Positions 1,342 to 44,340 of a DNA stretch of 63,172 nucleotides are shown here, one piece after another; the stretch's first letter is position 1; each line of letters starts with the position of its first letter. This DNA is from an uncultured Eubacteriales bacterium. GTDB taxonomy: Bacteria > Acidobacteriota > Aminicenantia > Aminicenantales > Saccharicenantaceae. The notes under the pieces were generated by a model. The model was not told the DNA's origin and made no database searches. It saw only the letters and a list, made by a program, of their open reading frames with translations. Location of the stretch: positions 1-63,172 of the forward strand of contig CAZZCH010000006.1 of the NCBI GenBank assembly GCA_964652895.1, read 5' to 3'. The translations under genes and the position numbers were made by a program.

Positions 1342-1351
1342 TTTTAAACCT

Positions 1352-4975: not shown

Positions 4976-5566
4976 ATGACCATATGGCGGACGGACGAGG
5001 AACTCATGCTCAGGTACCGTGACGGAGACACGGCCGCTTTCGAAACGCTTTACCGGCGTTACGAGAGGCCCCTGTTCGACTTCATCTATCGCCTGGTCCC
5101 GGACTCTACCGACACCGAAAGCCTGTTCCAGGAGACATTTTTCCGGGTCGTGCGAGCGAAGAGAAAATATCGGGCGACGGCGCTGTTCAAAACATGGCTC
5201 TTTCAGATCGCCGTGAATCTCTGCCGGGACAGGACGAGGCGGATGAAGCACCGCTCTCATCTCTCCCTCAGTTCTCCTCTCGCTGCGCGGGGAGAATCTC
5301 GTGCCGAGCTTCAGGATTTCGTTCCCGATCCATCTCCGGCCGTCGACAAAGCCGCCGAGGCCGGCGAGCTCGAGACTGCCGTCAGAGGAGCCGTCGCGGC
5401 TCTTCCCGAAGACGAACATCTTGTCGTGGTCCTGAGAGAATACCAAGGGATGAATTACTCGGAAATCGCCGAGATCACGAACCGGCCGATCGGGACCCTG
5501 AAATCCATCAATCACCGGGCCCACGAGAGGCTCCGGAGCGCTCTCGCGCCTTATCTGGGAGAATAG
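4976..5566 (+). CDS. ECF-type RNA polymerase sigma factor (sigma-70 family, group 4)
   Basis: Region 2 (AFETLYRRYERPLFDFIYRLV...ESLFQETFFRV) and region 4 HTH (LREYQGMNYSEIAEITNRPIGTLKSINHRAHERLR). Start placed at ATG 4976 after GGAAAGG; the ORF track opens at GTG 4949. Confidence 0.9.
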   Translation: MTIWRTDEELMLRYRDGDTAAFETLYRRYERPLFDFIYRLVPDSTDTESLFQETFFRVVRAKRKYRATALFKTWLFQIAVNLCRDRTRRMKHRSHLSLSSPLAARGESRAELQDFVPDPSPAVDKAAEAGELETAVRGAVAALPEDEHLVVVLREYQGMNYSEIAEITNRPIGTLKSINHRAHERLRSALAPYLGE

Positions 5567-5569: not shown

Positions 5570-6565
5570 ATGGAATGCGAAAACATCCGGAGGCGACTCA
5601 AAGCCTTCCTGGACGGCGAGCTCGAGGAGGCCGACAGGACAGCGATCCAGGACCATTTAGAGCATTGCCCGGGTTGCGCCGGAGTCGCCCGGCAGCTGAA
5701 ACAACTATCAGGCGTGCTCCAAACTTGGAAGGCCGAAGAACCCCCTGGGAATTTATACGAACGCCTGCAAGCGGGATTGGAATCCCGGGAATCGTGGTGG
5801 AAGAAGCTGTTGACGCCCGCGTTTGCCGGTAGAGCCGCCCTTCGGTTCGCCGAGGTCGCCGCGGTCGTCTTCATCACCCTCGCCGTCAGCCATTATTTCC
5901 AGAAGACCGCGCCGGTGCGTCCGGACGACGACCTCGCCACGATCAATTTCTACGTGACGGAACACCAGGAGGCCGTCCTGCAGGCCGCGTCTATGGAGTC
6001 CGCTGAGCGGCCGGCTGCCCGGGTGACCTTGAGCCGCGATGATATCATGTATTATGAATTCATCGACGATTATCGCCGGATATCACGCCCGGGAGTAATT
6101 TTGAGGGGATCTGCGTCCCTGCGGGACTCGGGGCAGGCCGCGCCGGGTTCTGGTCTTTCGAGTGCCAAAGCCCTCACGCTTCCTCAGGCCCGGAAGGAAG
6201 TGAGTTTCAACCCCGTGGCGCCCTCCCGGATCCATCCCGGTTATATCCTCGACACGATCACCAAGGTCGCCGGACGGGAGAGCCTTCATCTTCTCTACAC
6301 GAATGGGATCGAGAACTTCTCCGTATTCGAGCAGCCCCTCGACGGCGATCAGGGCCTTGCCGCAAAAGACTTCAGGGAATACGCCGTTTATAAAAGCTCC
6401 TCGCCGGCTGAAATTGCGGGGAATCAAGCGGGGACGACGATCCTAGCCTGGAAAAACACGTACGTCTCTTTTGTCTTGATAGGCCGGGCGGATATGTCCC
6501 GCTTGATGGAGATCGCCCAGGTTTTTACGGCCGCAAGTAAGAGCACAAATATAATCGGCGAGTGA
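5570..6565 (+). CDS. Anti-sigma factor (zf-HC2 N-terminus, one TM, extracytoplasmic RseB/DUF4367-like C-terminal domain)
   Basis: 331 aa. It starts 4 nt after the sigma gene. It carries an HLEHCPGC zinc-finger anti-sigma motif and a TM (AALRFAEVAAVVFITLAVSHYF). The family of the C-terminal domain is inferred only. Confidence 0.85.
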   Translation: MECENIRRRLKAFLDGELEEADRTAIQDHLEHCPGCAGVARQLKQLSGVLQTWKAEEPPGNLYERLQAGLESRESWWKKLLTPAFAGRAALRFAEVAAVVFITLAVSHYFQKTAPVRPDDDLATINFYVTEHQEAVLQAASMESAERPAARVTLSRDDIMYYEFIDDYRRISRPGVILRGSASLRDSGQAAPGSGLSSAKALTLPQARKEVSFNPVAPSRIHPGYILDTITKVAGRESLHLLYTNGIENFSVFEQPLDGDQGLAAKDFREYAVYKSSSPAEIAGNQAGTTILAWKNTYVSFVLIGRADMSRLMEIAQVFTAASKSTNIIGE

Positions 6566-6628: not shown

Positions 6629-8869
6629 ATGAAAAAGAAGGGACTGGTCTTTCTCGCCGCGGCCTTGGGCCTGCTCTTTATCTCGGAGTTCGGCATGATA
6701 AACGCCGGGCCAATACGCCAGGCTACCGCCGGACCGTCCGCCGAGGCGAATATTCTGGCGGAGAGGCAATTTGCCGATGCGGTCGCGCTTCTCAAGCGGG
6801 ATAACTTCTCCGAAGCGATCGTTGCCTACGAAAAAGTCATTCGGCTGCTTCCCGAGAGCCCGATCGCCCAGGACGCCCGTTACTGGATCGGTCAGACCTA
6901 TTTCCGGATGGGTGATTACGATGAGGCGTTGTCCGTCTTTAAAAAGCTCCTCAAAGACTATCCGGGAAGTCCGATCGTGCCGATCACGCAGCTGATGGTC
7001 TCTCGGGCTGAGCGGGAGAAGGAAGCGCAGAAAGCTGCCGCGAAGAGCTCTGCGGCGGCAGATCAAAAGATCATTATCGAGCCGAAAACCGGCGCGGAAT
7101 ACAGGAAGATCCATATTCTTTCCGGCAAGAATGATGTGGACTTTGGTCCAGGCGTTTTTTTATCGCCAAACGGAAAATTTCTCCTCAGCGGAATGACCGT
7201 TGTCCCCCTGGATGGCCAGGAACCTTTTGCCCTCGAGGCGAGAAAGGGGGGTCGCGGGACCTGGTCGGCTGACGGGAAAATGGCTGCCTATTACTCGGAG
7301 AACGCCATTTGGATCGTTCCCGTTTCTCCGGAGAGCGGACGCCCGACGGGACCATCAAAAAGGGTGTTGGACGGAAAATACGCGTATCAATTTCCCGTGA
7401 GCTGGGCTCCCGATTCGACGAAAATCGTTCTTCCGAGAAGGGACGAAAAGACGGAGGGAGACCTCTGGATACTCTCCATAAAAGACGGCGCGCTGACTCG
7501 GCTTACGGATGATCCGGGGTATGAGCCGAATGCTTGTTGGTTTCCCGACGGCAAGACCCTCGCGTATTTGACGAGAGGAAAAACATTTGAGATCCGTTCA
7601 GTGCCCGCCGCGGGAGGGGAGTCAAAGAAGATCATCGGGATGGAAGTCGGCGAGCTTCATTCCGTGTCGCCCGACGGGAAGTGGATCGCCTACAAAGATC
7701 GACAAATCCTCCATCTCTACAGAGTGGCTGATGAGCGCGACTTTCCAATAGCTCCACCTGAAGACGTCGGAGAATTTTTCTCCTGGTCCAAAGATGGGGG
7801 AAAGATGCTCTTTCGCCGTTCATCATATGAATGGAGGACCTTTCTCGGGATCGGTTCGACTTCCGGGGGACCATCCTTCCATCTAGCCAGGAACTTCGAG
7901 CTATGGCCCTTTAGACAATTCTGGGCTGCTGACAGCGATAAGATCATCACCTTGAGAGCTGGAGACTCTCAGTTCGTGACGATCTCCCTATCGGGAGGAG
8001 AGCCCATCCCCCTTGAGTTGAACGTCGCGTTTAAAGAAAAACCTAAGCCTCTCTTATTGTCCCCCGACCAGAAATACCTTCTTTTCTCCATCGATTTGGA
8101 AAACGGGAACGAGAACCTCTACACGGTTCCCGTCTCGCTGGAGGAGCCAGGCACAACGGGTCCTCCGGTGATGGTCTTCAAGGATTGGGACAGGCGTCAA
8201 GTCCTGTCTCAATCGTCCTGGTCTCCCGACGGCAAAAAGATCGCCTTGATCCACAAGGGCAATCTTTGGGTGACATCTTCCAAAGAAGTAAAACCGGTCC
8301 AGCTCACGATGACTTCTACAACAGGAGGGGATCCTCTTTGGTCGCCAAGAGGGGATAAGATCGGATTTGTCTCAGCAATCAAAGAGGACGACAGGAAGCT
8401 CATGGTCATTCCGGCGTCGGGCGGTGAGCCAACGGCACCCTTTAGCCAGCTTAAGACGTTTCAGACCTGGTGTTGGTCTCCGGATGGGAAGGCTCTTACC
8501 GTCATCTCCGACAAAAAAATGTTGGATATTCCACTCGACGGTGGCAAGCCGAAGGAGATTCTCAATCTTGAAGGCAAGGGATTCACGGGGCGGTATTGGG
8601 ATCTTACGTGGCTCCCGGACGGGAAACAAGTTGCTTTTATTGGAGAGCAAGAAAAGGACAAAGGAAATTCTTCGCATATCTATATCGTCTCCACCAAGAC
8701 GGGAAAGATCACCGAACTTGCCGCCGACGACAAAAGCTGGAAAGATGGACTTTTTCTGTCCCCGGATGGGAAATGGGTTTCCTACTACACTGATGAATTC
8801 CTCAAAACCCGCCCGACGTCGAGCATCTGGGAGGTCCAGGTGGATGACCTCATCAAGGGAAAGAAATAG
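6629..8869 (+). CDS. TPR + PD40/TolB-like beta-propeller secreted protein (paralog downstream of ECF sigma/anti-sigma)
   Basis: 746 aa. SD GGGGGAGGAG, signal peptide, YbgF-like TPR (AIVAYEKVIRLLPESP...GQTYFRMGDYDEALSVFKKLLKDYPGS), and many PD40 motifs (SPDGK, WSPDGKK, FPDGKT). Confidence 0.93.
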   Translation: MKKKGLVFLAAALGLLFISEFGMINAGPIRQATAGPSAEANILAERQFADAVALLKRDNFSEAIVAYEKVIRLLPESPIAQDARYWIGQTYFRMGDYDEALSVFKKLLKDYPGSPIVPITQLMVSRAEREKEAQKAAAKSSAAADQKIIIEPKTGAEYRKIHILSGKNDVDFGPGVFLSPNGKFLLSGMTVVPLDGQEPFALEARKGGRGTWSADGKMAAYYSENAIWIVPVSPESGRPTGPSKRVLDGKYAYQFPVSWAPDSTKIVLPRRDEKTEGDLWILSIKDGALTRLTDDPGYEPNACWFPDGKTLAYLTRGKTFEIRSVPAAGGESKKIIGMEVGELHSVSPDGKWIAYKDRQILHLYRVADERDFPIAPPEDVGEFFSWSKDGGKMLFRRSSYEWRTFLGIGSTSGGPSFHLARNFELWPFRQFWAADSDKIITLRAGDSQFVTISLSGGEPIPLELNVAFKEKPKPLLLSPDQKYLLFSIDLENGNENLYTVPVSLEEPGTTGPPVMVFKDWDRRQVLSQSSWSPDGKKIALIHKGNLWVTSSKEVKPVQLTMTSTTGGDPLWSPRGDKIGFVSAIKEDDRKLMVIPASGGEPTAPFSQLKTFQTWCWSPDGKALTVISDKKMLDIPLDGGKPKEILNLEGKGFTGRYWDLTWLPDGKQVAFIGEQEKDKGNSSHIYIVSTKTGKITELAADDKSWKDGLFLSPDGKWVSYYTDEFLKTRPTSSIWEVQVDDLIKGKK

Positions 8870-8895: not shown

Positions 8896-9123
8896 CTACT
8901 TTTTCGCCTTGTCCGCGGGCAGGAAATTCTCCGCCGGCCAGAATTCAGTACGAGACTCTGTCTTTCTATAGAAAGCGAGCTTCTTCCCGTCAGGAGATAG
9001 GTCGGGCGCTCCGCCCTTGATGTTCAATTTCTCCGCCTTTCCCCCTTCGACCGGGACCTTGTGGAGCTCCCATCCGGAGTGTGTCCAGATTCCGTCAAAA
9101 TACCGCTCTGCCGATGAGGTCCT
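8896..9123 (-). pseudogene. C-terminal remnant (75 codons) of a further TPR-PD40 paralog
   Basis: Hand translation of the minus strand gives ...GIWTHSGWELHKVPVEGGKAEKLNIKGGAPDLSPDGKKLAFYRKTESRTEFWPAENFLPADKAKK*. This aligns with the last blade and tail of the paralogs (e.g. LWRIPVQGGEPEKLDI...HPDGTQLAF...ELWVMENFLPERSSKK*). An in-frame stop lies at 9124-9126 and there is no start codon. Confidence 0.75.
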
Positions 9124-9231: not shown

Positions 9232-9489
9232 ATGGCTAGGACGACCAAGACGCTGACTGTCTCTCTGCCGCCCCAGATCTATGAGGAGATCGAAAGGTTG
9301 GCCAGGCTGGAAAGAAAAACCAAAAGCGAGCTTTTTCGCGATATGGTCTCGGTCTATGAAGACCATCTCGACGAAGAGCGCTGGGAAAAGCTCCGCCGCC
9401 TCGGCAGGGCGACGGCGAGGAAGTATCGGCTGTCTTCCGAGCGGGATATCGAAGAGTTGATCCATGAAGCTCGTGGAATTCGAGATTGA
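9232..9489 (+). CDS. Ribbon-helix-helix (CopG/RHH) antitoxin
   Basis: 85 aa. The N-terminal RHH pattern is KTLTVSLPPQIYEEIERLARLERKTKSELFRDMV. The stop overlaps the start of the PIN gene. Confidence 0.85.
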   Translation: MARTTKTLTVSLPPQIYEEIERLARLERKTKSELFRDMVSVYEDHLDEERWEKLRRLGRATARKYRLSSERDIEELIHEARGIRD

Positions 9490-9902
9490 ACGGCCGGCGC
9501 GTTGTCTTTGATACGAATATCTTCCTTTCGGCGTTCACCTTTGGCGGGAAACCCGTGGCCGTTTTCGAAATGGCCCGGGCAGGCAACATTCAACTTATCG
9601 TTTCCGCTTCTATCCTGGCCGAGCTGGCATTGATCCTGAAAGGCAAATTCGCGTGGGATGACAAGGACATCCGCGAGGCCCTGATGGTCGTCGGCCGGCA
9701 TGCTGACCTTGTCAAGCCGGGGACGCGGCTGCGAGTCCTCGAGGATGACGCTGAGAACCGGGTTCTGGAGTGCGCTGTCGAAGGCCGCGCGGAGTGGATC
9801 ATCTCAGGCGATCACCATCTCCTGAGCCTGAAAGAATATCGGGGGGTTCAGATCGTCCGGGTTTCTGACTTTCTCTCGTCATTGGCGGAAGACGATACGT
9901 AG
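9486..9902 (+). CDS. PIN-domain toxin (VapC-like, PIN_3-type)
   Basis: 138 aa. It has VVFDTNIFLSA (first acidic residue) and ...EDDAENRVLECAVEGRAEWIISGDHHLL, typical of PIN-family putative toxins. It uses a TTG start overlapping the antitoxin stop (TTGA). Confidence 0.85.
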   Translation: MNGRRVVFDTNIFLSAFTFGGKPVAVFEMARAGNIQLIVSASILAELALILKGKFAWDDKDIREALMVVGRHADLVKPGTRLRVLEDDAENRVLECAVEGRAEWIISGDHHLLSLKEYRGVQIVRVSDFLSSLAEDDT

Positions 9903-10020: not shown

Positions 10021-10066
10021 TTGACAAACTTCTACATGCGTCGTATATTTACTACAGATGTAGAAG
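10021..10066 (+). promoter_or_regulatory. Promoter (-35 TTGACA 10021-10026, -10 TATATT 10044-10049) embraced by inverted repeat CTTCTACAT / ATGTAGAAG (10029-10037 / 10058-10066)
   Basis: 17-nt spacer. The TACA...TGTA half-sites are the type of operator bound by BlaI/MecI/CopY-family repressors. The element is immediately upstream of the BlaI-like gene. Confidence 0.55.
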
Positions 10067-10078
10067 AAAGGAGGCCCG

Positions 10079-10459
10079 ATGAGACTCACCGACGCGGAAT
10101 GGCAGATCATGAACGCCCTCTGGAAACAGTACCCGGCGACGGCCCGGGAGATCGCCGAGAACCTGGCCGATGAAACCCAGTGGGCTTATACGACCATCAA
10201 GACGCTTCTGGCCAGGCTCGCTGCGAAGAACGCCGTGAGCGAGCAAAAACGCGGGAACACGAGCGTCTACGAGCCGCTCGTCAGCCTGAAGAAAGCCCGG
10301 CGGACTGCCCTCAGGACTTTCCTCAACCAGGCCTTCGGCGGGACCGTCGAGCCCCTCCTCAACTTCCTGGCCGAGGAACGCAAGCTCTCGGACAGGCAGC
10401 GCAGGGAACTCCTCAAAATCCTCCAAAACGAGGAAGCCAGGAAAGGGGAGAAGCCATGA
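10079..10459 (+). CDS. BlaI/MecI/CopY-family transcriptional repressor
   Basis: 126 aa. Winged helix (LTDAEWQIMNALWKQYPATAREIAENL...WAYTTIKTLLARLAAKNAV) and a C-terminal dimerisation helix. The stop overlaps the next start (ATGA). Confidence 0.93.
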   Translation: MRLTDAEWQIMNALWKQYPATAREIAENLADETQWAYTTIKTLLARLAAKNAVSEQKRGNTSVYEPLVSLKKARRTALRTFLNQAFGGTVEPLLNFLAEERKLSDRQRRELLKILQNEEARKGEKP

Positions 10460-13419
10460 TCGCCGCAGTCAATCAAATCGCCCAATCCTGGTGGAGTTGG
10501 ATGGGCCCCATGCTCTGGCAGGTCAGCCTTTTGATCCTGATCGTCACGGCCCTGGACTTTGTCCTCCGTCGCTGGGCCTGGCCCCAGGTCCGCTATGCTC
10601 TTTGGCTCCTTATCCTTGTCAAGCTCATCATTCCGCCGACGTGGACTCTGCCGAGCAGCCTGATCTCGAAGTGGCAGCCCATGGTCCAGGCCAGGATCGA
10701 GGAGCGCCTTGGCATCAATCTCCGGGGACCGGCCGCCGTCGAAGCGCTCCAAATGCCCCTCTCTAGCCCTGCTTCCATGACAGCTTCAGGTAGTGTCGGA
10801 GAGCCCATCAAACAAACCGTGCCGGCGCAGCCAGCCGAATCCTCTTCGCTTCGCGCGAGCCACACGCTCGGATGGAAATCATACACCCTGATCGTCTGGA
10901 TCCTGGGCATGGGATTCTTCGTCGCCCTGCTGGCGCTCCGGATCTCGAGACTCCGCCGCTGGCACAAGAAGCAGATCGAGAAAAAGATCATCCCCGTCTG
11001 GTATTACGAGCTTCTGATCGAGACGACGAAACGCCTGAAGCTGGGGCGGCTGCCGGCCATCGTCTTTTCCAAGGACGCGAAAGCCCCGGCCGTTTACGGC
11101 ATGTTCAGGCCGGTGCTACTCCTCCCGGCCAGCTACCTCGACTCCCTTTCCCGTGAAGACGCCGAACACGTCCTCCTTCATGAGCTGGCCCATCTCAAGC
11201 GCGGCGACCTCTGGCTTCATGGGCTCTGCCTTCTTCTCCAGATCGTCTACTGGTTCAACCCCCTTCTCATTTGGACGCGTAGGCAGATGAAGCATGTCAG
11301 GGAGATCTGCTGCGACCTGACGATCGCCAACGTCCTCAAGGAGAAAACCATGAAATACCGCGAAACCCTTCTCAACACGGCCAGGGAGCTCCTGACCGAA
11401 ACAGCCGAGCCCGGAATGGGCCTCCTGGGCGTCTTCGAGGACCCCTTCCGGCTGGTGGCTCGCCTCAGATGGCTGGAAAAAAAGACCTGGCGCACGCGGA
11501 AGCTCATGACGGCGGCCGTCGCCGTTGTAGCGATCGTCATGACCGCGGCCGTCCTGCCGATGGGAAGCGCCGGCCAGGTAGGCGCGGCGGGCGATAAGGC
11601 GAACAACGCATTCACCCTCAAAAAGCTCGGCCAGGTCCAGGGTCAATTGCTGGGGGCTGTTTCGCCGGACGGAAAATACGTTTCCTTTGTGGATTGGAAT
11701 ACGGGGGACCTGGCCGTACGCGACCTTGCTACCGGGGAGGAAAAGCGGCTCACGGATAAAGGCCCGTGGACTCAGTCCGGAGCCGAGGCCTTCCAATCCC
11801 GCTGGTCGCCCGACGGGCAGAAGATCGTCTATGACTGGTGGGATTGGGACAAAGAGCCCGGATTCGTCGGGATCCGGGTTGTCGGATTGGACGGACAGGC
11901 GCCCCGGACGATCTATCAGGTGCCCGATAATGAGCTCACCATTACCTATGGCTGGTCTTCTGACGGGAAGCGGATTCTGGTGCTTCATCGAGTCGTGGTG
12001 CCTCCCGGGAAAACAATTCCAGACCCGAGAGATAGGGTCGCAAAGATTTCTCTGGTCGACATTGAAGACGGCTCGGTCCAAGTCCTCAAAGAATTGGACC
12101 TTAGGAGCTTCGCCTACAACCAGTACATTGACATGGACCTATCGCCGGACGGACGCTTTATCGCCTACAGTATTCCCGTCGGCGGAAATGCCTTCAACAA
12201 GGACATCATGCTGCTCTCCGTCGGAGATCTGCGGGAGATCCCGCTCGTCGAACACCCGGCCAATGAAGGTCTGCTCGGATTCACGCCGGATGGCAGGCAC
12301 GTATTGTTCACCAGCAACCGGCGGGGAAGCCCGGACATCTGGATGATCCCTGTATCCAACGGGCGGGCCGACGGCGCCGCCGAGCTGCTGGTCATGGGAG
12401 CCGGTGAAATCGAGCCTCTGGGCTTCACCACTGGGGGAGCTTTCTACTATGCCACGGGGAGACCTGAAGAAAACGTCTACCTCGCCGAGCTCAACCCAAA
12501 AACGGGACAGGTGGTCAAGGCCCCTCAGGAACCGATCCCGCATCTCGGGAACGAATCCCATTCTCCAGCCTATTCGCCGGATGGCCGGCTGCTGGCTTAT
12601 GTTTCCAATCGAGGCGGGCGTGGGCTAGCCAGCCGCTTCGTCATTTGTATCCGCTCGCTGGATTCGGGCAAGGAGAGGGAAATCTTGCCGGAGTACAATT
12701 TCATGTGCCTCAAATGGTCACCGGACGGCCGACGGCTTCTTGGCCGGGCGTTCGACGGCAGCGACCGGAGCGCGCGCAGTCTCCTGGCCACGATCGACGC
12801 GGAGACAAGCGAAGTCCACGTGATTAAAAAATGTGAGGCGGCGCGTCTTGATCAGACAATCATGGAGTTTGATTGGACAAAGAATGGGCGTGCGGTGTTC
12901 TACGTGCTGAACACAAAATCGAAAAACCTCAGTCAACTCTTGGTCCGGGACCTTGAAAGCGGGAGCGAAAAGGAGCTGTACCGCGCTCCGACCTGGGCTG
13001 AGAGGTTCAACATTTCGCGGTCCCCTGACGGGGAGTGGCTGGCCCTAATGAACTACAGGGGAATGGAGGAAAAAAGAAGGACGCTGCGGATCATCTCGGC
13101 CGACGGCAAGGAAGTGCACGACCTGACGACTTTTGAAGATACCTATAACGGCCCGGCCTGGACGACATGGACGCCGGATGGGAAGTACGTGCTGTTTCCC
13201 AAGCACAACCCCGAAGAGCAGGGAAAGAGCCAGCTCTGGCGCATTCCGGTTCAGGGAGGAGAGCCAGAAAAGCTCGACATCGAAATGACGCATTTCTACA
13301 ACCTGACTATCCATCCCGACGGGACCCAACTCGCCTTCAGCTCGAACGGCCCTTCATGGAAAGAACCGGAACTCTGGGTGATGGAGAATTTCCTTCCGGA
13401 GAGAAGCAGTAAGAAATAG
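10456..13419 (+). CDS. BlaR1/MecR1-type M56 zinc-metalloprotease signal transducer fused to a C-terminal PD40/TolB-like beta-propeller
   Basis: Start trimmed to ATG 10456 (MIAAVNQIAQSWW...); the ORF-track extension overlaps blaI in another frame. It has multiple TMs, an HEXXH motif (HVLLHELAHLKRGD) and a last TM near residue 350. About 600 aa of PD40 repeats follow, ending ELWVMENFLPERSSKK* like the stand-alone paralogs. Confidence 0.9.
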   Translation: MIAAVNQIAQSWWSWMGPMLWQVSLLILIVTALDFVLRRWAWPQVRYALWLLILVKLIIPPTWTLPSSLISKWQPMVQARIEERLGINLRGPAAVEALQMPLSSPASMTASGSVGEPIKQTVPAQPAESSSLRASHTLGWKSYTLIVWILGMGFFVALLALRISRLRRWHKKQIEKKIIPVWYYELLIETTKRLKLGRLPAIVFSKDAKAPAVYGMFRPVLLLPASYLDSLSREDAEHVLLHELAHLKRGDLWLHGLCLLLQIVYWFNPLLIWTRRQMKHVREICCDLTIANVLKEKTMKYRETLLNTARELLTETAEPGMGLLGVFEDPFRLVARLRWLEKKTWRTRKLMTAAVAVVAIVMTAAVLPMGSAGQVGAAGDKANNAFTLKKLGQVQGQLLGAVSPDGKYVSFVDWNTGDLAVRDLATGEEKRLTDKGPWTQSGAEAFQSRWSPDGQKIVYDWWDWDKEPGFVGIRVVGLDGQAPRTIYQVPDNELTITYGWSSDGKRILVLHRVVVPPGKTIPDPRDRVAKISLVDIEDGSVQVLKELDLRSFAYNQYIDMDLSPDGRFIAYSIPVGGNAFNKDIMLLSVGDLREIPLVEHPANEGLLGFTPDGRHVLFTSNRRGSPDIWMIPVSNGRADGAAELLVMGAGEIEPLGFTTGGAFYYATGRPEENVYLAELNPKTGQVVKAPQEPIPHLGNESHSPAYSPDGRLLAYVSNRGGRGLASRFVICIRSLDSGKEREILPEYNFMCLKWSPDGRRLLGRAFDGSDRSARSLLATIDAETSEVHVIKKCEAARLDQTIMEFDWTKNGRAVFYVLNTKSKNLSQLLVRDLESGSEKELYRAPTWAERFNISRSPDGEWLALMNYRGMEEKRRTLRIISADGKEVHDLTTFEDTYNGPAWTTWTPDGKYVLFPKHNPEEQGKSQLWRIPVQGGEPEKLDIEMTHFYNLTIHPDGTQLAFSSNGPSWKEPELWVMENFLPERSSKK

Positions 13420-13455: not shown

Positions 13456-15603
13456 TTACTTATTGCCGGCAGCTTTCGGCAAAAAGTTCTCCATGACCCA
13501 GACATCAGCCTCGATACGCCAGGAGGTGAGCGCGAGTTTTCTGCCATCGGGATGAAAACTCAGTTTCCCAAAGGCGTCCATGGTCAAATCGAATTTCTCA
13601 GGCCTCCCGCCTTCCGCGGGAATCCGCCAGAGGCTGCAGGCGTCGCTCTTGCTGCTTCCCTCTTCCCACTTGGAATAATAGATGTACCGGCCATCGGGGG
13701 ACCAGACAAGGCCGTTTATGCCCTCTCCCTTATCGAGTTTCATAAGGGTTCTTTTCTCTCCGCCCCCCAACGGAATGGTCCTCAGGCAGGCAAATCCTTC
13801 CTCTCCATCTTTAAAGGCCAGCCACTTACCGTCAGGCGATTGACCATAATGGATCATTTGCTTCGAACTCCGGACGAGTTCTTTTTTCTGTTTCGTCTCG
13901 AGGTCGTAGCTCATGATCCGGAATGTGTCATTCTTCCAATCATCGAGGTCATAAAAGATCGTCCGACCGTCGCGGGAGAGAACCGGGCCATGGAAACCTC
14001 CCATATCGTCCAAAATCAATAGAGCCTCAGCTTGCCCCGTTGCAATATCCACACGGAACAATCCCAATCGATGTCCCTTAGCCACCCCACGCACAAGTAT
14101 GAATTTTCCATCGGGAAACCAAGCGACGGTGTCAAAATCCTTTATTGAGGGATGGACCTCCCGTTCCTCTCCGGAGACCATGGATTTGATGCATAAGACT
14201 CCTGGCTCTGATCGGCCTTGGCTTCGAACCGAGGTGTAAGCCATGTAATTCCCGTCCGGGGACCAGCAGGGACATGAATTGGACCCTTCGAAAAGGAGAG
14301 CGGCTTTTTCCGCTCGAGCCGCGGGGCCTCCTGTTGCGGGATCTAATGAAAGGATATAAATGTCATCCAGAGAAATACTAATCCCATAATAAAAAGAGCC
14401 ATCTCTCGTGAATCCCATCGGCATGATCTTGGGGTCGCCGAAATCCCTCCGAATGAGCCGGGGATCCCCGCCGGCATCTCCATTCTCGACAGGTTGGATC
14501 CAGGCGTCCCATGAGCCGGATCGGTCGCTCGAGAAGAGAATCGATTTGCCGTCGGGAGTCCATCCCAGCAAGCTGTCGTCCGCGGGATGAGCCACCACAG
14601 GCACTTCGCGGCTGCCGTCAACAGACAAGAGATAAATATCGCTCTTCTCGGAGGACGTTCTCCAGGGAACCTCATTAGGATAAGCGAAGGCGATCCATTG
14701 ACCGTCGGGTGATAGGCTGAGCTTGCCCGGCGCTCCGGATTTGAATTCCTTGATGGTCCGGGCCGTCCCGTCGGAGGCCGAGATCAAGGCTATCCGGCTG
14801 AGCTTTTCATTGTTCGTCACGATCGCCAAAATGTGTTTTCCATTAGGAATCCAGCCACAAGGCCAGATGTAATTAACATCTTTGCCGCCATAGAGTACTT
14901 TCTGTCCGGTTCCGTCTATGTTGATGGTGCGCAGATCATAACGGTCATCCTTCAAGTTGTACCAATTATAGGCGATGGATTTTCCGTCGGGCGAAAAACT
15001 CGATTCCTCAGCCCAATCGCCTGAAACCGCCCACGAGCCCTTTGCCGTGACCCGGCGCTTCGTTCCCGAGGCCGCCTCATAAAGGGCCAGATCTCCGGTG
15101 TTCCAATCGACACACGAAATCAAACTTCCGTCCGGAGAGGGACCGCCCAAGACCTCGAGCGGGCCAATCTTCCTGATCCGGAATTCACCTTCGCCCGGCT
15201 CAGTCGCTCCCCGGGTTTTCTGAAAGGCAACAAGCTTGTTTTTGGCCATATTGACCGAATCCGTTTGGTCTGGATAATCCTTGACGATCCTCTGGAACGT
15301 TGCTTGAGCCTGTTGGGCTTGTCTTTCTCCCAACCGCTCATAGCAAGTCCCCATGAGATACAAGGATCTTGCGGCGTATTCCCGCTCGTTTGGGTATTTC
15401 CTGATGATCTCCTCGAAGAGGTCGATGGCACCCTTGAGGTCGCCCGTCGTCTCCATGGTGAACTTGGCCTTCTCGAAGAGGACCTTGTGTTGGGAGGAGT
15501 TCTGTAGGGCGGAGGCCGCGCAGACGGCGGCCGACATCCCCATGACCAAGGCTAATAAGGCCAAGGATCTTGTTGACTTCCTCGAAAGTCTTTTGAGTCT
15601 CAT
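13456..15603 (-). CDS. TPR + PD40/TolB-like beta-propeller secreted protein (paralog B)
   Basis: 715 aa. SD GGAGG, signal peptide, TPR (AIDLFEEIIRKYPNEREYAARSLYLMGTCYERLG...FQRIVKDYPDQ), PD40 motifs, C-terminus DVWVMENFLPKAAGNK*. Confidence 0.93.
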   Translation of the reverse strand: MRLKRLSRKSTRSLALLALVMGMSAAVCAASALQNSSQHKVLFEKAKFTMETTGDLKGAIDLFEEIIRKYPNEREYAARSLYLMGTCYERLGERQAQQAQATFQRIVKDYPDQTDSVNMAKNKLVAFQKTRGATEPGEGEFRIRKIGPLEVLGGPSPDGSLISCVDWNTGDLALYEAASGTKRRVTAKGSWAVSGDWAEESSFSPDGKSIAYNWYNLKDDRYDLRTINIDGTGQKVLYGGKDVNYIWPCGWIPNGKHILAIVTNNEKLSRIALISASDGTARTIKEFKSGAPGKLSLSPDGQWIAFAYPNEVPWRTSSEKSDIYLLSVDGSREVPVVAHPADDSLLGWTPDGKSILFSSDRSGSWDAWIQPVENGDAGGDPRLIRRDFGDPKIMPMGFTRDGSFYYGISISLDDIYILSLDPATGGPAARAEKAALLFEGSNSCPCWSPDGNYMAYTSVRSQGRSEPGVLCIKSMVSGEEREVHPSIKDFDTVAWFPDGKFILVRGVAKGHRLGLFRVDIATGQAEALLILDDMGGFHGPVLSRDGRTIFYDLDDWKNDTFRIMSYDLETKQKKELVRSSKQMIHYGQSPDGKWLAFKDGEEGFACLRTIPLGGGEKRTLMKLDKGEGINGLVWSPDGRYIYYSKWEEGSSKSDACSLWRIPAEGGRPEKFDLTMDAFGKLSFHPDGRKLALTSWRIEADVWVMENFLPKAAGNK

Positions 15604-15703: not shown

Positions 15704-16402
15704 TCAGTCCATGAACCGGTATCCTTCGCCGTAGATGGAGAAGATATGCCGAGGCCGGGAGGGATCCTCCTCGATCTTCTTTCTCAGTTTCAGGATGTGG
15801 TTATCGATCGTCCGGGTCGTAGGGAATTTTTCGTATCCCCAGATCTTGTCAAGAAGCGCCTCCCGGGAAACTACTTCGCCTTTGTGGGCGATGAGATATT
15901 TCAGGATATCGACTTCGAGAGACGTCAGGTCGGATTCCTTCCCGGCGTGCCTCACTTTGAAATGGACGAAATCGACCTCAACATCGCCGAACACACAGAT
16001 CTTGAGGATGCTCCGTGGTTCCCGCTTTTCGCGCCGCAAATGGGCCTTGATCCTGGCCAGGAGCTCCCGGACGCTGAACGGCTTGGTCATGTAGTCGTCG
16101 GCCCCGATCTCGAGCCCTACGACCTTGTCCACTTCTTCGCCCTTGGCCGTGAGCATGATGACGGGGACATTCGCTTTTTTCTGGCGGAGCTCCCGGCAGA
16201 CCTCCAGCCCGTTCATCCCGGGCAGCATGAGGTCGAGGATGACGATGTCGGGCGCCTCTTCCAGGGCCCGGCGCAGGCCTTCCCGCCCGTCGGCCGCCCA
16301 ATCCACCTCGTATCCCTCGTCGGCCAGGTTGAGCTTCAAGCCCTTGACCAGGTCGGCCTCGTCCTCGATGATCAATATTTTTTCTTTCGTTTTTTCGTTC
16401 AT
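15704..16402 (-). CDS. OmpR/PhoB-family response regulator (module B)
   Basis: 232 aa. REC (ILIIEDE...IVILDLMLPGMNG...GADDYMTKP) plus a winged helix (...IYGEGYRFMD). Overlaps kinase B by 4 nt. Confidence 0.95.
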   Translation of the reverse strand: MNEKTKEKILIIEDEADLVKGLKLNLADEGYEVDWAADGREGLRRALEEAPDIVILDLMLPGMNGLEVCRELRQKKANVPVIMLTAKGEEVDKVVGLEIGADDYMTKPFSVRELLARIKAHLRREKREPRSILKICVFGDVEVDFVHFKVRHAGKESDLTSLEVDILKYLIAHKGEVVSREALLDKIWGYEKFPTTRTIDNHILKLRKKIEEDPSRPRHIFSIYGEGYRFMD

Positions 16403-18644: not shown

Positions 18645-20777
18645 CTATTTCTTAGTCTTATCCACGGGCAGGAAGTTCTCCATGACCCAGACTTGGGATT
18701 GTTCGGGATTCGCGCCCATGGATGAAAAGGCGAAATGCTGTCCGTCTGGATGGACGCTCATATAGCGGAATCGAGCCATCGACAGGTCGATCTTTTGGGC
18801 TTCTCCTCCGTCCGCGGAGAGACGATAGAGATCACACATATCTTCGGTGGATTTCTGCAGCTTGGAGAAATAGATAAAGCGTCCATCGGCGCTCCAGGTC
18901 GGCGTTATAACGGGACCGCCTTCTTGTTCGAAGCTGTATATTTCTCGAAGATCTCCGCCCGACGTCGGCATGATTCTTATCACGATTTTGTTTCCTCTGT
19001 TGGTGAGGGCCAGCCATTTCCCGTCCGGGGAGATATCGAAGAACTGCGCATCAGAAGGGGAACCGGAAATCCGCTCTTCCTGGCCGGATTCAAAAATATG
19101 GACGAAAATAGAGCCTGTTTTTCCGGCCCGATCGCCGGTCGAATAGAACATGACTTTCCCGTCCGTGGACCACAGGTGTGAGTATATCTCCGTTCCTTTA
19201 TCGATCAGCACGATCGGGGCAATGTCGCCTGTTTGGACATCGACCCTGTAGATACCCTTACGGCCATCCTTGCCGGTTCCTTCAACAGAAACGGCGCGGC
19301 CATCGGGCGCCCAGCGGGGATATCCAAACCCATCTAGATCAGGCTTTAACTCACGAACTCGGCCTGTTTCCAGAGATAGAATACGCAGGATCTGCTTAGG
19401 CTGAATTGCCGGGATGCTCGGAGTGTAGATATACACAAGGAACTTCCCGTCAGGAGAGTACTCAGGGAACGCGTTGTGCCCCTCATAAAGCAAAACTGCC
19501 TTTTTTGCGGGGCTAGAGATCTTTCCCGTACGGGGCTCTATTCCGACCTCGTACACATCAGTGCCGCCGCCTTGAAGCCCGTAAAATAATGCTCCCGTCG
19601 AGGTGATTCCCATCGGCCAGACAGAACCCACGGCGGACTTGACCAATTGGGGGCTTCCGAGAAGGTTGCCTTCGCTGATACGCATGAACCACACGTCCTG
19701 TGTCCCTGTCCGGTTGCTAAGGAACAGAAGGCCCTCGCCGCCCGGCGTCCAGTCGATGACCGTATCGACGGCGGGATGGTTGATCAAGGGAGTCTCTATT
19801 CTTCCATCGGCCGACAGCAAGAAAATATCCCGTTTATCATCCAGCCCGTCTCCCACCCAGGCGTCATAGGCGACATATCTTCCGTTCGGAGAGAACACGA
19901 ACCCCCAGGCTTTGCGGTTTATCGAATGTTGTCCTAAAAAGGTTTTCAGGACCTTTTCTGAACCATCGACAACGGATATCAAGCCTAGTTGGGTTATCTC
20001 TTCGACGGCCGAGTTCTCCACCCTAAAGAAACCTGCCAAAACGGATTTTCCGTCGGGAGACCAGTCAAACGGGTGGACATACTCCATTTTTTCGAGAGTT
20101 CGATAGAGGACACGCGGAGTCGCCTCTTTGATATCGATGATGCGCAACTCAAAGATCTCATCCTTGTTGTACCATTGATAGACGATCCGCCGGCTGTCGG
20201 GGGACCATTTCGAAAACAGGGCAAATTCCGGGGACTGCATCCATGAGCCCTTGTTCGTCAGACGGCGGTTTGTCCCTTCGGCGATGTCCCTGATCGCCAA
20301 GTCGCCCGTCTCCCAATCCACAAAAGAGAGATATCGGCCGTCCGGAGAGACGCTCCCCATGGTGTCCGTTCCGGGACCCGACCAAATCTGGCGGAGGCTG
20401 AATTCGGCGGTGCCCGTCTTCATGAGAGCGCGGGACTTAATGAGGAGGGAGAGTTTTGATTGGGCTTCCCTGACTGGCCCCGACTGCTCCGGGTAATTGT
20501 CGATTACTTGCTGAAAGGCCTTTTCCGCTTCTTTTGTGCCCAGTTTCTCGTAACAAAGTCCGATATGGAGCTGGGCCATTGCGGCGATTTGGCGGTTCTC
20601 CGGAAACCGCTTGACGAGGTCCTGGTAGATCCCTATGGCCTTCTGCAGGTCTCCGCCTACTTCTTCTTCATAAAGGCCGGACTTGTAGAGCTGTTGGGCG
20701 GTCTGTTGGCCGGCGCCCGAAAGGGCCAAGGCCAAGATCGCGGCCATTAGGGCAGACAAGATCAATTTTGGTTTCAT
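18645..20777 (-). CDS. TPR + PD40/TolB-like beta-propeller secreted protein (paralog C)
   Basis: Trimmed to ATG 20775-20777 (MKPKLILSALMAAILALALSG...), preceded by GAGGAGG. 710 aa. TPR (AIGIYQDLVKRFPENRQIAAMAQLHIGLCYEKLG...FQQVIDNYPEQ), PD40 motifs, C-terminus QVWVMENFLPVDKTKK*. Confidence 0.92.
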   Translation of the reverse strand: MKPKLILSALMAAILALALSGAGQQTAQQLYKSGLYEEEVGGDLQKAIGIYQDLVKRFPENRQIAAMAQLHIGLCYEKLGTKEAEKAFQQVIDNYPEQSGPVREAQSKLSLLIKSRALMKTGTAEFSLRQIWSGPGTDTMGSVSPDGRYLSFVDWETGDLAIRDIAEGTNRRLTNKGSWMQSPEFALFSKWSPDSRRIVYQWYNKDEIFELRIIDIKEATPRVLYRTLEKMEYVHPFDWSPDGKSVLAGFFRVENSAVEEITQLGLISVVDGSEKVLKTFLGQHSINRKAWGFVFSPNGRYVAYDAWVGDGLDDKRDIFLLSADGRIETPLINHPAVDTVIDWTPGGEGLLFLSNRTGTQDVWFMRISEGNLLGSPQLVKSAVGSVWPMGITSTGALFYGLQGGGTDVYEVGIEPRTGKISSPAKKAVLLYEGHNAFPEYSPDGKFLVYIYTPSIPAIQPKQILRILSLETGRVRELKPDLDGFGYPRWAPDGRAVSVEGTGKDGRKGIYRVDVQTGDIAPIVLIDKGTEIYSHLWSTDGKVMFYSTGDRAGKTGSIFVHIFESGQEERISGSPSDAQFFDISPDGKWLALTNRGNKIVIRIMPTSGGDLREIYSFEQEGGPVITPTWSADGRFIYFSKLQKSTEDMCDLYRLSADGGEAQKIDLSMARFRYMSVHPDGQHFAFSSMGANPEQSQVWVMENFLPVDKTKK

Positions 20778-20788
20778 GATTCGAGCCT

Positions 20789-20811
20789 CCTCATGGTTTA
20801 TCTCCATGAGG
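20789..20811 (-). promoter_or_regulatory. Hairpin (8-bp stem, 7-nt loop) whose 3' arm overlaps the Shine-Dalgarno of paralog C
   Basis: The gene-strand sequence is CCTCATGG-agataaa-CCATGAGGAGG-ctcgaatc-ATG. Confidence 0.35.
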
Positions 20812-20857
20812 AATGATAGGCCTGCGCCCAGTCGCGCGCTTGATGCTATCGCGACCC

Positions 20858-20877
20858 TTCCATGAAGATTCCATGAA
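20858..20877 (-). promoter_or_regulatory. Direct repeat TTCATGGAA-N2-TTCATGGAA (11-bp register): candidate OmpR-type regulator box upstream of paralog C
   Basis: Two exact 9-mers spaced 11 bp apart, 7 nt after the regulator C stop and about 80-100 nt upstream of the paralog C ATG. A weak -10 (TATCAT) with no -35 lies downstream. Confidence 0.35.
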
Positions 20878-20883
20878 TATCGG

Positions 20884-21564
20884 TTACCCCGTGAACTTGT
20901 ATCCGACACCCCTCACGCCCAAGATGTATTTTGGGGCCTGCGGATCGTCCTCAAATTTTTTTCTTAGAAGCGAGATGTGCTTGTCGACGGTCCGGGCATC
21001 GACATAGACGTCCTTGCCCCAGACGCTGTCCAGGACTTCATTCCGATGGACCACGCGCCCCTTGTTTTGGACGAGGAAATGGAGCAGGCTGAACTCGAGA
21101 GCGGTCAGGGGGACCGGCCGGCCCTTTTTACGAGCCTCGTACTTTGAGAAATCGATCTCGATCGCGTCGAAGCGGTAAAAATCGATGCCCTGGTCATGCT
21201 CGCTCATCCTTCGGAGAATGGCCTTGATACGGGCCAGAAGCTCCCGGGAGCTGAACGGCTTGGTGACATAGTCGTCGGCCCCAAGCTCGAGGCCGAGGAC
21301 CTTGTCGACCTCCTGGCTCTTGGCGGTCAACATCAGGATCGGCGTCATCACCCGGTCCTGACGCAGCCGCTTGCAGACCTCGAAACCGTCCAACTTCGGC
21401 AGCATGATGTCGAGGACGATGAGGTCGAAGGGATGCTCAGCGGCCATGGACAGGCCTTCGAGGCCGTCTCTCGCGCACGAGACCTCGTACCCTTCGAGCC
21501 GGAGGTTATCCTCGAGCGGCATAAGGATGCTTTCTTCGTCTTCGACGATCAGGATCTTGGTCAT
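20884..21564 (-). CDS. OmpR/PhoB-family response regulator (module C)
   Basis: Trimmed to ATG 21562-21564 (MTKILIVEDEES...), 226 aa. REC plus winged helix (...VRGVGYKFTG). Starts 1 nt after the kinase C stop. Confidence 0.93.
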   Translation of the reverse strand: MTKILIVEDEESILMPLEDNLRLEGYEVSCARDGLEGLSMAAEHPFDLIVLDIMLPKLDGFEVCKRLRQDRVMTPILMLTAKSQEVDKVLGLELGADDYVTKPFSSRELLARIKAILRRMSEHDQGIDFYRFDAIEIDFSKYEARKKGRPVPLTALEFSLLHFLVQNKGRVVHRNEVLDSVWGKDVYVDARTVDKHISLLRKKFEDDPQAPKYILGVRGVGYKFTG

Positions 21565-21565
21565 C

Positions 21566-44334: not shown

Positions 44335-44340
44335 AATGGC

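What the first reader, a model, noticed from the sequence alone, without database searches (positions are those of the whole stretch)
10021..13419. BlaR1-type M56 protease whose sensor domain is replaced by a PD40 propeller of the local paralog family
Seen: a BlaI/MecI-like repressor (10079-10459) is preceded by a TACA/TGTA-type inverted repeat over its promoter and is translationally coupled (ATGA) to a 987-aa protein. That protein has BlaR1-like TMs and the zinc motif HELAH (HVLLHELAHLKRGD). After the last TM the extracytoplasmic part is about 600 aa of PD40 repeats ending ELWVMENFLPERSSKK*, the same tail as paralogs B and C. Established: in BlaR1/MecR1 the extracellular sensor is a penicillin-binding domain, and its acylation triggers the M56 protease and loss of BlaI/MecI repression. 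Inference: here the propeller is the sensor. As a domain-fusion ('Rosetta stone') argument, this implies that the stand-alone paralogs next to kinases and the anti-sigma factor also act on the input side of signalling.
Basis: partly seen in the sequence, partly recalled or inferred. Interest (0 to 1): 0.75.

Follow-up and report, generated by a model that had tools for sequence, protein, structure and literature searches.

The report
BlaI/BlaR1-type switch with propeller ectodomain
A two-gene repressor and membrane-protease switch of the penicillin-resistance (BlaI/BlaR1) type carries a double beta-propeller outside the cell where the penicillin-binding sensor would be; it is a real, conserved but untested variant of a family already known to swap its outer domains.

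Summary
The blaI-like repressor gene (10079-10459) overlaps by ATGA a 987-aa gene (10456-13419). That gene encodes an M56 (BlaR1-type) zinc protease module followed by about 600 aa of PD40 repeats. The fusion is not a frameshift artefact: about 27 full-length orthologs (73-94% identity) come from independent metagenomes, and roughly 20 clusters at 50% identity share the architecture.

Catalytic residues (HELAH, ExxxD, Tyr301), the repressor's Asn-Phe cleavage site and a BlaR1-like N-out/C-out topology are all present. Two CTACA-N2-TGTAG dyads sit in a near-consensus promoter. They are kept even in loci whose repressor is only 30-60% identical.

The ectodomain is a tandem propeller of about 12 blades, with Tricorn and TolB as best fold matches. 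It is 33-35% identical to two local stand-alone paralogs. Its sister group is stand-alone TPR-PD40 proteins encoded after kinase/regulator pairs. The M56 part nests among M56-GyrI-like proteins, so the propeller probably displaced or joined a GyrI-like domain, not a penicillin-binding one.

The sensor role is plausible but inferred. Ligand and regulon are unknown: the operator occurs once in 63 kb. Sensor swapping in M56 proteins was published in 2026, so this is a new variant of a known kind.

The parts
10021..10049 (+). Sigma-70-type promoter: TTGACA (10021-10026), 17-nt spacer, TATATT (10044-10049)
   Evidence: 11 of 12 consensus positions. The block from -35 to the ribosome-binding site is nearly identical in 13 ortholog loci, while the DNA upstream of -35 is unrelated.
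10032..10043 (+). Operator dyad 1 (CTACATGCGTCG) in the promoter spacer. The left half-site is intact and the right half is degenerate in this lineage.
   Evidence: At the same position, distant loci have perfect dyads: CTACAAATGTAG in L017, L018 and L025, and TTACGGATGTAA in L023.
10052..10063 (+). Operator dyad 2 (CTACAGATGTAG), a perfect CTACA-N2-TGTAG palindrome just after the -10 box, over the likely transcription start
   Evidence: The only exact or one-mismatch match in the 63-kb window. Present at the same place in 14 related loci. It is of the TACA/TGTA type used by BlaI/MecI/CopY repressors (established knowledge).
10070..10074 (+). Ribosome-binding site GGAGG, 4 nt before the blaI-like ATG
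   Evidence: Read directly from the sequence; conserved in orthologs.
10079..10459 (+). BlaI/MecI-type winged-helix repressor, 126 aa, no cysteine
   Evidence: Pfam Penicillinase_R E 1.4e-32, profile positions 1-114 of 115. Full-length alignment to MecI 1sd6/1okr and BlaI 1sd4.
10361..10366 (+). Codons for Asn95-Phe96 (LLN|FLAE), the predicted scissile bond of the repressor
   Evidence: Aligns with MecI vLNFv. BlaI is cut between Asn101 and Phe102 (PMC9834060). More distant homologs keep His-Phe or Gly-Phe at this position.
10456..11571 (+). M56 transmembrane and zinc-protease module (aa 1-372). Hydrophobic segments at aa 19-37, 47-65, 145-163 and 350-368, plus a segment at 254-272 that would correspond to BlaR1's re-entrant region.
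   Evidence: Peptidase_M56 E 5.6e-42. Aligns to S. aureus BlaR1 8exp residues 112-268. Hydropathy and Lys/Arg density.
11179..11193 (+). Zinc motif HELAH (His242, Glu243, His246), followed by Asp251
   Evidence: Aligned with BlaR1 H201EYAH205...D210. Invariant in 25 sequences spanning 34-94% identity.
11302..11316 (+). E283-I-C-C-D287, the third zinc ligand motif (ExxxD)
   Evidence: Aligned with BlaR1 E242VEAD246. Invariant in A1 and A2. Tyr301 aligns with BlaR1 Tyr261.
11608..13416 (+). Extracytoplasmic tandem PD40 beta-propeller module (aa 385-987), about 12 blades, ending ELWVMENFLPERSSKK
   Evidence: PD40 E 5.6e-33. Twelve SPDG-type blade motifs about 48 aa apart. In the AlphaFold2 model most 10-residue blocks of this region have pLDDT above 80. 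Best Foldseek hits are Tricorn 1k32, tandem-propeller proteins and TolB.
13456..15603 (-). Context: stand-alone paralog (signal peptide + TPR + the same PD40 module), last gene of a kinase/regulator/PD40 operon (16399-18552, 15704-16402)
   Evidence: 35% identity to the fused module over 613 aa, E 3e-105. Pfam results.
18645..20909 (-). Context: second stand-alone paralog, last gene of a second kinase/regulator/PD40 operon (21566-23707, 20884-21639)
   Evidence: 33% identity over 608 aa, E 1.5e-108. Pfam results.

Best explanation
This is a self-contained, autoregulated BlaI/BlaR1-family regulated-proteolysis switch whose extracellular input domain is a tandem PD40 beta-propeller.

Proposed mechanism:
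1. The repressor dimer binds two CTACA-N2-TGTAG dyads, one in the -35/-10 spacer and one just after the -10 box, and shuts off the two-gene operon.
2. The membrane protein is oriented N-out/C-out as in BlaR1. Its zinc active site (His242, His246, Glu283) faces the cytoplasm and its ~600-aa propeller module faces the periplasm.
3. An as yet unknown periplasmic ligand binds the propeller. A peptide, protein or envelope polymer is most likely, given what TolB- and Tricorn-type propellers bind.
4. Binding shifts the last transmembrane helix and perhaps the long extracellular loop (aa 66-144), and this activates the protease.
5. The protease cuts the repressor at Asn95-Phe96 in its dimerisation region. 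That derepresses the operon and any unlinked genes carrying the same operator.

Shown here: the domain composition, conserved catalytic and scissile residues, conserved operators, predicted topology, conservation of the fusion, and its evolutionary origin.

Inferred: ligand binding, signal transmission, actual cleavage and the regulon.

Evolution: a PD40 module from a TPR-PD40 gene of a kinase/regulator operon was grafted onto an M56 chassis that otherwise carries GyrI-like ectodomains.
For: - Domains.
- BlaR1 motifs: H201ExxH, D210, E242xxxD and Y261 all align with invariant residues here. Their roles are taken from PMC9834060.
- Repressor: full-length match to MecI/BlaI with Asn-Phe at the MecI position. 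Phe at P1' is kept in distant homologs.
- Promoter and operators: the two-dyad layout is conserved from 96% down to about 30% repressor identity, including a 1540-aa form (L023) and the 38%-identity form (L025).
- Gene pair: the repressor sits immediately upstream in every locus examined, while other neighbours differ.
- Topology: Lys/Arg density is 0.19-0.33 in predicted cytoplasmic loops and 0-0.09 in predicted outside segments. Homologous stand-alone modules have signal peptides.
- Interchangeable ectodomains: M56 modules 50-84% identical carry GyrI-like/Cass2, CarboxypepD_reg or ankyrin domains instead.
- Literature: about 15,000 M56 proteins fall into 254 architectures, only ~6% have the penicillin-binding domain, and ~96% lie within 5 genes of a BlaI homolog (PMC13492132).
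Against: - No ligand can be named.
- The extracellular loop that mediates signalling in BlaR1 is poorly conserved here and modelled at pLDDT below 50.
- The whole-protein model has pTM of only 0.51, so domain packing is unknown.
- The operator occurs only at the operon's own promoter in the 63-kb window and in all fetched loci. The only demonstrated target is therefore the operon itself.
- M56 proteins with no structured ectodomain still act as regulators (CenR, PvmS, mycobacterial BlaR). An ectodomain is thus not strictly needed for signalling.
- The mapping of a BlaR1-like autocleavage loop (LLGV|F, aa 323-327) rests on spacing only. The sequence alignment to BlaR1 stops at aa ~308.
Confidence: 0.6

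Rival explanations
1. The propeller is a working periplasmic module rather than a signal receiver, for example a peptide- or protein-binding scaffold or Tol-like envelope factor. The M56 part then serves mainly as its membrane anchor and as a protease that responds to membrane or cytoplasmic cues. The PD40 domain is in that case the output of an autoregulated operon, and the stand-alone paralogs are likewise outputs of their kinase/regulator and sigma/anti-sigma operons.
For: - The only operator found controls the operon itself.
- In every operon the PD40 gene is the last gene, as expected for a co-induced product.
- The kinases have their own ~420-aa periplasmic domains and need no separate sensor.
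- M56 regulators without structured ectodomains exist.
Against: - The propeller sits exactly where the BlaR1 sensor sits, after the last transmembrane helix.
- It is interchangeable with ligand-binding-type domains such as GyrI-like/Cass2 on near-identical M56 modules.
- Fusions arose more than once: M56-linked modules are polyphyletic. That is easier to explain by selection for input coupling than by anchoring.
Confidence: 0.25
2. The M56-PD40 protein works together with the neighbouring kinase/regulator/PD40 systems as one network. Propellers of different paralogs form hetero-oligomers or compete for one ligand, so the fused and free propellers are co-receptors feeding several transduction routes.
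For: - Within 24 kb, five signalling units each have a PD40 family member: three kinase/regulator pairs, one ECF sigma/anti-sigma pair, and BlaI/M56.
- The same kinase/regulator/PD40 order is seen next to an ortholog (L001) and for the sister stand-alone protein (L022).
Against: - Neighbours of the blaI-M56 pair are not conserved in distant loci.
- None of the odd-length proteins scanned among the 150 closest clusters carried a kinase or anti-sigma domain.
- Local paralogs are only 22-35% identical to the fused module.
Confidence: 0.12
3. The fusion is an assembly or frameshift artefact that joins an M56 gene to a PD40 gene, or the protease is a dead remnant.
For: None found.
Against: - About 27 full-length orthologs of 969-994 aa come from independent ENA, JGI, NCBI and Logan assemblies.
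- Nineteen DNA loci were recovered, the complete ones with the same uninterrupted frame.
- Roughly 20 clusters at 50% identity span both domains.
- All catalytic residues are invariant.
Confidence: 0.01

Closest known systems
BlaR1/BlaI and MecR1/MecI of Staphylococcus aureus and Bacillus licheniformis
   Same: - Repressor gene next to the M56 sensor-protease gene.
- Winged-helix repressor with an Asn-Phe scissile site.
- TACA/TGTA dyad operators over an autoregulated promoter.
- HExxH...ExxxD gluzincin between transmembrane helices.
- N-out/C-out topology with the C-terminal domain outside.
   Different: - No penicillin-binding (transpeptidase-fold) sensor and no SxxK motif; a ~600-aa tandem PD40 propeller takes its place.
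- No beta-lactamase or PBP2a gene at the locus.
- Gene order is repressor first, with ATGA overlap.
- NCBIfam blaR1_generic scores 115 bits against a cut-off of 400 and matches only the N-terminal half of the model.
Atypical BlaIR-family systems: CenIR of C. difficile, PvmSR of P. aeruginosa, mycobacterial BlaIR (PMC13492132; bioRxiv 10.64898/2026.08.03.742534)
   Same: M56 protease without a transpeptidase domain, paired with a BlaI-like repressor, responding to something other than beta-lactams. Part of the 254-architecture diversity reported for M56 proteins.
   Different: Those proteins have short, mostly disordered or absent ectodomains. This one has a very large, well-folded tandem propeller. 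PD40 is not among the nine architectures with 100 or more entries listed in that survey.
TolB (Tol-Pal system) and the N-terminal beta6/beta7 propellers of Tricorn protease
   Same: PD40-type blades. These are the best sequence and fold matches for the ectodomain. Both are propellers that bind peptides or proteins.
   Different: - No TolB N-terminal domain and no tol-pal genes.
- TIGR02800 scores 108 bits against a cut-off of 343.
- No Tricorn PDZ or catalytic domains.
- About 12 blades in tandem.
M56-GyrI-like/Cass2 proteins of the same bacterial lineage (e.g. P0064, P0075, P0082)
   Same: The M56 module is 70-84% identical and lies in the same clade (100% bootstrap for the joint clade).
   Different: The ectodomain is one or more GyrI-like small-molecule-binding domains instead of PD40. 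P0028 and P0043 carry both.

Membership tests
BlaI/MecI/CopY (Penicillinase_R) repressors | Full-length winged-helix plus dimerisation domain matching PF03965 | tested here: met
   E 1.4e-32, profile positions 1-114 of 115. Aligns end to end with MecI and BlaI structure sequences.
BlaI/MecI/CopY (Penicillinase_R) repressors | Asn-Phe scissile bond in the dimerisation helix (BlaI/MecI subtype) | tested here: met
   Asn95-Phe96 aligns with MecI LNF. The site definition comes from PMC9834060. Actual cleavage was not tested.
BlaI/MecI/CopY (Penicillinase_R) repressors | TACA/TGTA dyad operators at the regulated promoter | tested here: met
   Two dyads at 10032-10043 and 10052-10063, conserved across loci.
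CopY/TcrY copper repressors (subtype) | C-terminal cysteine-rich metal-binding motif | tested here: not met
   The 126-aa protein contains no cysteine. TIGR02698 scores 80.6 bits against a cut-off of 122.
BlaR1/MecR1 beta-lactam sensor-transducers | M56 domain with the HExxH and ExxxD zinc motifs | tested here: met
   PF05569 E 5.6e-42. Motifs align to BlaR1 8exp and are invariant.
BlaR1/MecR1 beta-lactam sensor-transducers | Four transmembrane helices, N-out/C-out, active site facing the cytoplasm | tested here: inconclusive
   Hydropathy and the positive-inside rule agree with it, and AlphaFold2 predicts helices at the same places. No dedicated topology predictor or experiment was available.
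BlaR1/MecR1 beta-lactam sensor-transducers | C-terminal penicillin-binding (transpeptidase-fold) sensor domain | tested here: not met
   No PF00905 match; the C-terminus is PD40. The blaR1_generic model matches only positions 9-333 of 585, at 115 bits against a cut-off of 400.
BlaR1/MecR1 beta-lactam sensor-transducers | Linked beta-lactamase or PBP2a target gene | tested here: not met
   The flanking genes are a RHH-PIN pair and a convergent PD40 paralog. No second operator was found in the window.
Atypical BlaIR-family systems (M56 without a transpeptidase domain) | M56 membrane protease with a BlaI-like repressor within five genes | tested here: met
   The genes overlap by 4 nt. The same pairing holds in all loci examined. 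The criterion is taken from PMC13492132.
TolB (Tol-Pal) | TolB N-terminal domain plus a single six-bladed propeller, reaching the equivalog score | tested here: not met
   TIGR02800 scores 107.7 bits against a cut-off of 343. The module has about 12 blades in tandem.
Tricorn protease | Tandem propellers followed by PDZ and a serine-protease core | tested here: not met
   Only the propellers match (Foldseek 1k32, E 3e-16, TM-score 0.2). No PDZ or S41 domain was found in Pfam.

The most novel reading that the evidence does not exclude
The ~600-aa tandem PD40 module may be a portable periplasmic receptor family that Aminicenantes-like Acidobacteriota and, on the few named hits, Planctomycetota plug into at least three different transduction systems. 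It would act as a free TPR-anchored co-receptor for two-component systems and ECF sigma/anti-sigma pairs, and as a covalently fused input for BlaI/M56 proteolytic switches. The M56 fusion would then be the Rosetta stone showing that the many 'TolB-like' paralogs of these phyla are sensors of an envelope or peptide signal rather than Tol-system parts.
Probability: 0.25. Interest if true: 0.65.

Novelty: new variant of a known kind. Interest (0 to 1): 0.42.

Why it matters
BlaI/BlaR1 is the textbook one-step proteolytic signalling route for beta-lactam resistance. Recent work shows that most family members sense something else, but almost none has a recognisable, foldable input domain. This variant has a large, confidently modelled ectodomain, a clean conserved operator pair and a predicted cleavage site. 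That makes it a tractable system for asking what non-beta-lactam BlaIR systems sense and how an unrelated ectodomain drives the same protease. It also gives a concrete, testable hypothesis for the function of the abundant unstudied TPR-PD40 ('TolB-like') paralogs of uncultured Acidobacteriota and, on the few named hits, Planctomycetota. It has no bearing on antibiotic resistance as such.

Tried and rejected
- **Frameshift or assembly artefact:** rejected. Many independent full-length orthologs and loci exist.
- **Dead protease:** rejected. The catalytic residues are invariant.
- **CopY-type copper repressor:** rejected. The protein has no cysteine and scores below the cut-off.
- **True TolB or Tricorn:** rejected on scores and missing domains.
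- **Special sorting signal in the ELWVMENFLP tail:** judged unnecessary. The tail follows HPDGTQLAFSS at the spacing of the normal PD40 'diwvmd' strand, so it is most simply the last strand of the last blade. Its low model confidence leaves this open.
- **Further operator copies in the window:** none at 0-1 mismatch. The 7 sites at 2 mismatches are no more than chance (5.1 expected), and one of them is dyad 1 itself.
- **Extending the BlaR1 alignment to the autocleavage loop with a profile:** the alignment still stopped near aa 306. The LLGV|F assignment therefore stays an inference from spacing.
- **Literature on M56 with PD40:** nothing found.
- **Genome-collection scan:** only 3 loci, with uninformative organism names apart from one 'Candidatus Aminicenantes' record.
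- **Fusions of the PD40 module to other signalling domains:** the eight odd-length proteins scanned from the representative search carried only M56 or no further domain beyond PD40/propeller matches.

Full report
**1. What is in the sequence**

An ORF at 10079-10459 (+) encodes 126 aa. It matches Pfam Penicillinase_R over the whole profile (E 1.4e-32). It also aligns end to end with the crystal-structure sequences of MecI (1sd6, 1okr) and BlaI (1sd4) (E about 3e-13).

Its stop codon overlaps, as ATGA, the start of a 987-aa ORF at 10456-13419. That protein matches Peptidase_M56 at aa 22-311 (E 5.6e-42) and PD40 repeats over aa ~400-987 (E 5.6e-33).

Upstream lies a near-consensus promoter, TTGACA-17-TATATT, at 10021-10049. 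An inverted repeat covers it.

**2. It is a real gene, not a join**

A search of 5.8 billion proteins returned about 27 full-length relatives of 969-994 aa at 73-94% identity. They come from ENA, JGI, NCBI and Logan assemblies, and one is named Candidatus Aminicenantes. Further M56+PD40 proteins of ~960-990 aa (about 38% identity) and ~1500-1560 aa (two PD40 modules; two of these are named Planctomycetota) also appeared.

Nineteen related DNA loci were fetched; the complete ones have the same uninterrupted frame. In a library of 1.84 billion representatives at 50% identity, roughly 20 of the best 150 clusters span both domains.

**3. The protease and the repressor look functional**

The sequence aligns to S. 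aureus BlaR1 (8exp) as follows:

| Window residue | BlaR1 residue |
|---|---|
| His242-Glu243...His246 | H201EYAH205 |
| Asp251 | Asp210 |
| Glu283...Asp287 | E242xxxD246 |
| Tyr301 | Tyr261 |

The roles of these residues are described in the BlaR1 cryo-EM paper (PMC9834060). All are invariant in an alignment of 25 M56-PD40 proteins down to 34% identity. They are also invariant in a second alignment that includes M56 proteins with other C-termini.

The repressor has Asn95-Phe96 (LLN|FLAE) where MecI has LNF. BlaI is cut between Asn101 and Phe102. More distant repressors of this family keep Phe at P1' with His or Gly at P1. The repressor has no cysteine, so it is not of the CopY type.

A BlaR1-like autocleavage loop may exist at LLGV|F (aa 323-327). 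This rests on spacing only, because the alignment to BlaR1 ends near aa 308.

**4. Topology**

Hydrophobic segments lie at aa 19-37, 47-65, 145-163, 254-272 and 350-368. The segment at 254-272 follows HELAH and corresponds to BlaR1's membrane-embedded protease helices.

Lys+Arg density by segment:
- Predicted cytoplasmic: 0.33 for the 38-46 loop, 0.19 for aa 164-253, and 0.22 for aa 273-349.
- Predicted outside: 0 for the N-terminus, 0.09 for the 66-144 loop, and 0.09 just after the last helix.

This gives the BlaR1 arrangement: N-terminus out, active site in, C-terminal domain out. Independently, all stand-alone homologs of the PD40 module in the window begin with a signal peptide or anchor. 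No dedicated topology predictor was available, so I rate this as well supported but not proven.

**5. The ectodomain**

AlphaFold2 with the 25-sequence alignment gave mean pLDDT 73.6 and pTM 0.51. Most 10-residue blocks of the propeller region have pLDDT above 80. The 60-136 loop is below 50.

About 50 strands and twelve SPDG-type blade motifs spaced ~48 aa apart indicate roughly 12 blades in tandem. The best Foldseek matches are Tricorn protease (1k32), proteins with two propellers, and TolB. TolB is also the best sequence match in the PDB.

Neither TolB nor Tricorn membership holds. The scores are far below the curated cut-offs, and the defining extra domains are missing.

The shared tail ELWVMENFLP follows HPDG...AFSS at the normal spacing of a PD40 blade. 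It is most simply the last strand of the last blade.

**6. Operators**

In 13 ortholog loci the stretch from -35 to the ribosome-binding site is nearly identical, while everything upstream of -35 differs. The more distant loci L017, L018 and L025 show two perfect CTACA-N2-TGTAG dyads, one between -35 and -10 and one just after -10; L019 keeps only the second dyad perfect. L020, L021 and L023 carry variant dyads at the same two positions (TTACGGATGTAA in L023).

In the window, dyad 2 (10052-10063) is perfect. Dyad 1 (10032-10043) has a degenerate right half.

This is the classical autoregulated BlaI/MecI layout. The dyad occurs nowhere else in the 63-kb window at 0-1 mismatch, and 2-mismatch sites are at chance level. 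It also occurs nowhere else in the fetched loci. No output gene other than the operon itself can therefore be named.

**7. Neighbourhood and paralogs**

The window carries the following signalling units, each ending in a PD40-family gene:

| Unit | Regulatory genes | PD40 gene |
|---|---|---|
| Kinase/regulator 1 | 21566-23707, 20884-21639 | 18645-20909 |
| Kinase/regulator 2 | 16399-18552, 15704-16402 | 13456-15603 |
| Kinase/regulator 3 | 2120-4240, 1447-2127 | 52-1386 |
| ECF sigma/anti-sigma | 4949-5566, 5570-6565 | 6629-8869 |

The fused module is 33-35% identical over ~600 aa to the paralogs at 13456 and 18645 (E 1e-105). It is only ~22% identical to the one at 6629.

The blaI-M56 pair keeps its internal arrangement in all loci, but its neighbours change. 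It is an autonomous two-gene module.

**8. Evolution of the fusion**

The ~575-600-aa PD40 module behaves as a unit. It occurs in five contexts:
- once after TPR (~715-750 aa);
- twice after TPR (~1300 aa);
- once after M56;
- twice after M56;
- after M56 plus a GyrI-like domain (P0028, P0043).

In a neighbour-joining tree of 110 modules, the window's clade is sister to the stand-alone TPR-PD40 proteins P0077 and P0080 (49% identity; 100% of 50 bootstraps). Other M56-linked modules fall in separate clades, so such fusions arose more than once. P0080 is encoded directly after a kinase and a response regulator.

The M56 part tells a different story. M56-GyrI-like proteins are 70-84% identical to it, overlapping the range of true orthologs (83-95%). 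The M56-PD40 clade plus the GyrI-only P0064 has 77% support. The joint GyrI/PD40 clade has 100%.

The simplest reading is that a propeller module from a two-component operon was added to an M56-GyrI-like protein, and the GyrI-like part was later lost. These are distance trees with moderate support, so this remains a scenario rather than a result.

Other close M56 modules carry CarboxypepD_reg or ankyrin domains.

**9. Comparison with what is known**

A 2026 paper on CenIR of C. difficile surveyed about 15,000 M56 proteins (PMC13492132). It found 254 architectures. Only ~6% have the penicillin-binding domain, and ~96% lie within five genes of a BlaI homolog. PD40 is not among the nine architectures with 100 or more entries.

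A 2026 preprint describes PvmSR of P. aeruginosa, which also lacks a sensor domain. JGI's automatic annotation already labels these proteins 'beta-lactamase regulating signal transducer with metallopeptidase domain / Tol biopolymer transport system component'. No paper mentioning M56 together with PD40 was found.

The general principle is therefore known. This particular large, folded ectodomain and its link to the TPR-PD40 family are not described.

**10. Verdict**

The interpretation as a BlaI/BlaR1-type switch with a propeller input domain is the best-supported reading (confidence about 0.6), but the sensor role is inferred.

The main rival is that the propeller is a working periplasmic part and the output of an autoregulated operon (about 0.25). 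The Rosetta-stone extension to the free paralogs is a reasonable hypothesis that the data neither establish nor exclude.

Novelty: a new variant of a known kind. Interest is moderate.

Noticed in passing
window 8899-9069 (-): A remnant of the C-terminal end of another PD40 paralog (…DLSPDGKKLAFYRKTESRTEFWPAENFLPADKAKK*). In-frame stop codons precede it. It lies between paralog 6629-8869 and the RHH-PIN pair, so it looks like a truncated pseudogene, perhaps cut by insertion of the toxin-antitoxin pair.
   Followed up: partly
window 9232-9489 (+) and 9486-9902 (+): A ribbon-helix-helix antitoxin and PIN-domain toxin pair with overlapping genes, directly upstream of the blaI promoter. Ortholog locus L001 has VapB/PIN pairs next to the operon as well, but on the other side.
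   Followed up: partly
window 52-1386 (-): A TPR-PD40 paralog of only 444 aa, against 715-754 aa for the others. It ends at a stop 51 nt from the window edge and may be truncated or frameshifted.
   Followed up: no
window 2120-4240, 16399-18552, 21566-23707 (-): Three paralogous histidine kinases, each with two transmembrane helices enclosing a ~420-aa periplasmic region. That region has no Pfam match in two of them and has TPR repeats in the third. This is an unstudied sensor domain family.
   Followed up: partly
P0028, P0043, P0064, P0082 (relatives, not in the window): M56 proteins 70-84% identical in the protease module carry extracytoplasmic GyrI-like/Cass2 small-molecule-binding domains, sometimes together with the PD40 module. 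GyrI-like domains are usually cytoplasmic effector-binding domains, so an outside location would be unusual.
   Followed up: partly
window 56990-60223 (-), 29909-31549 (+), 26496-28820 (+): Other genes in the window include a GH123-family glycoside hydrolase (1077 aa), an MttB-family methyltransferase and an S15 X-Pro dipeptidyl-peptidase. SecA lies at 44218-46848.
   Followed up: no
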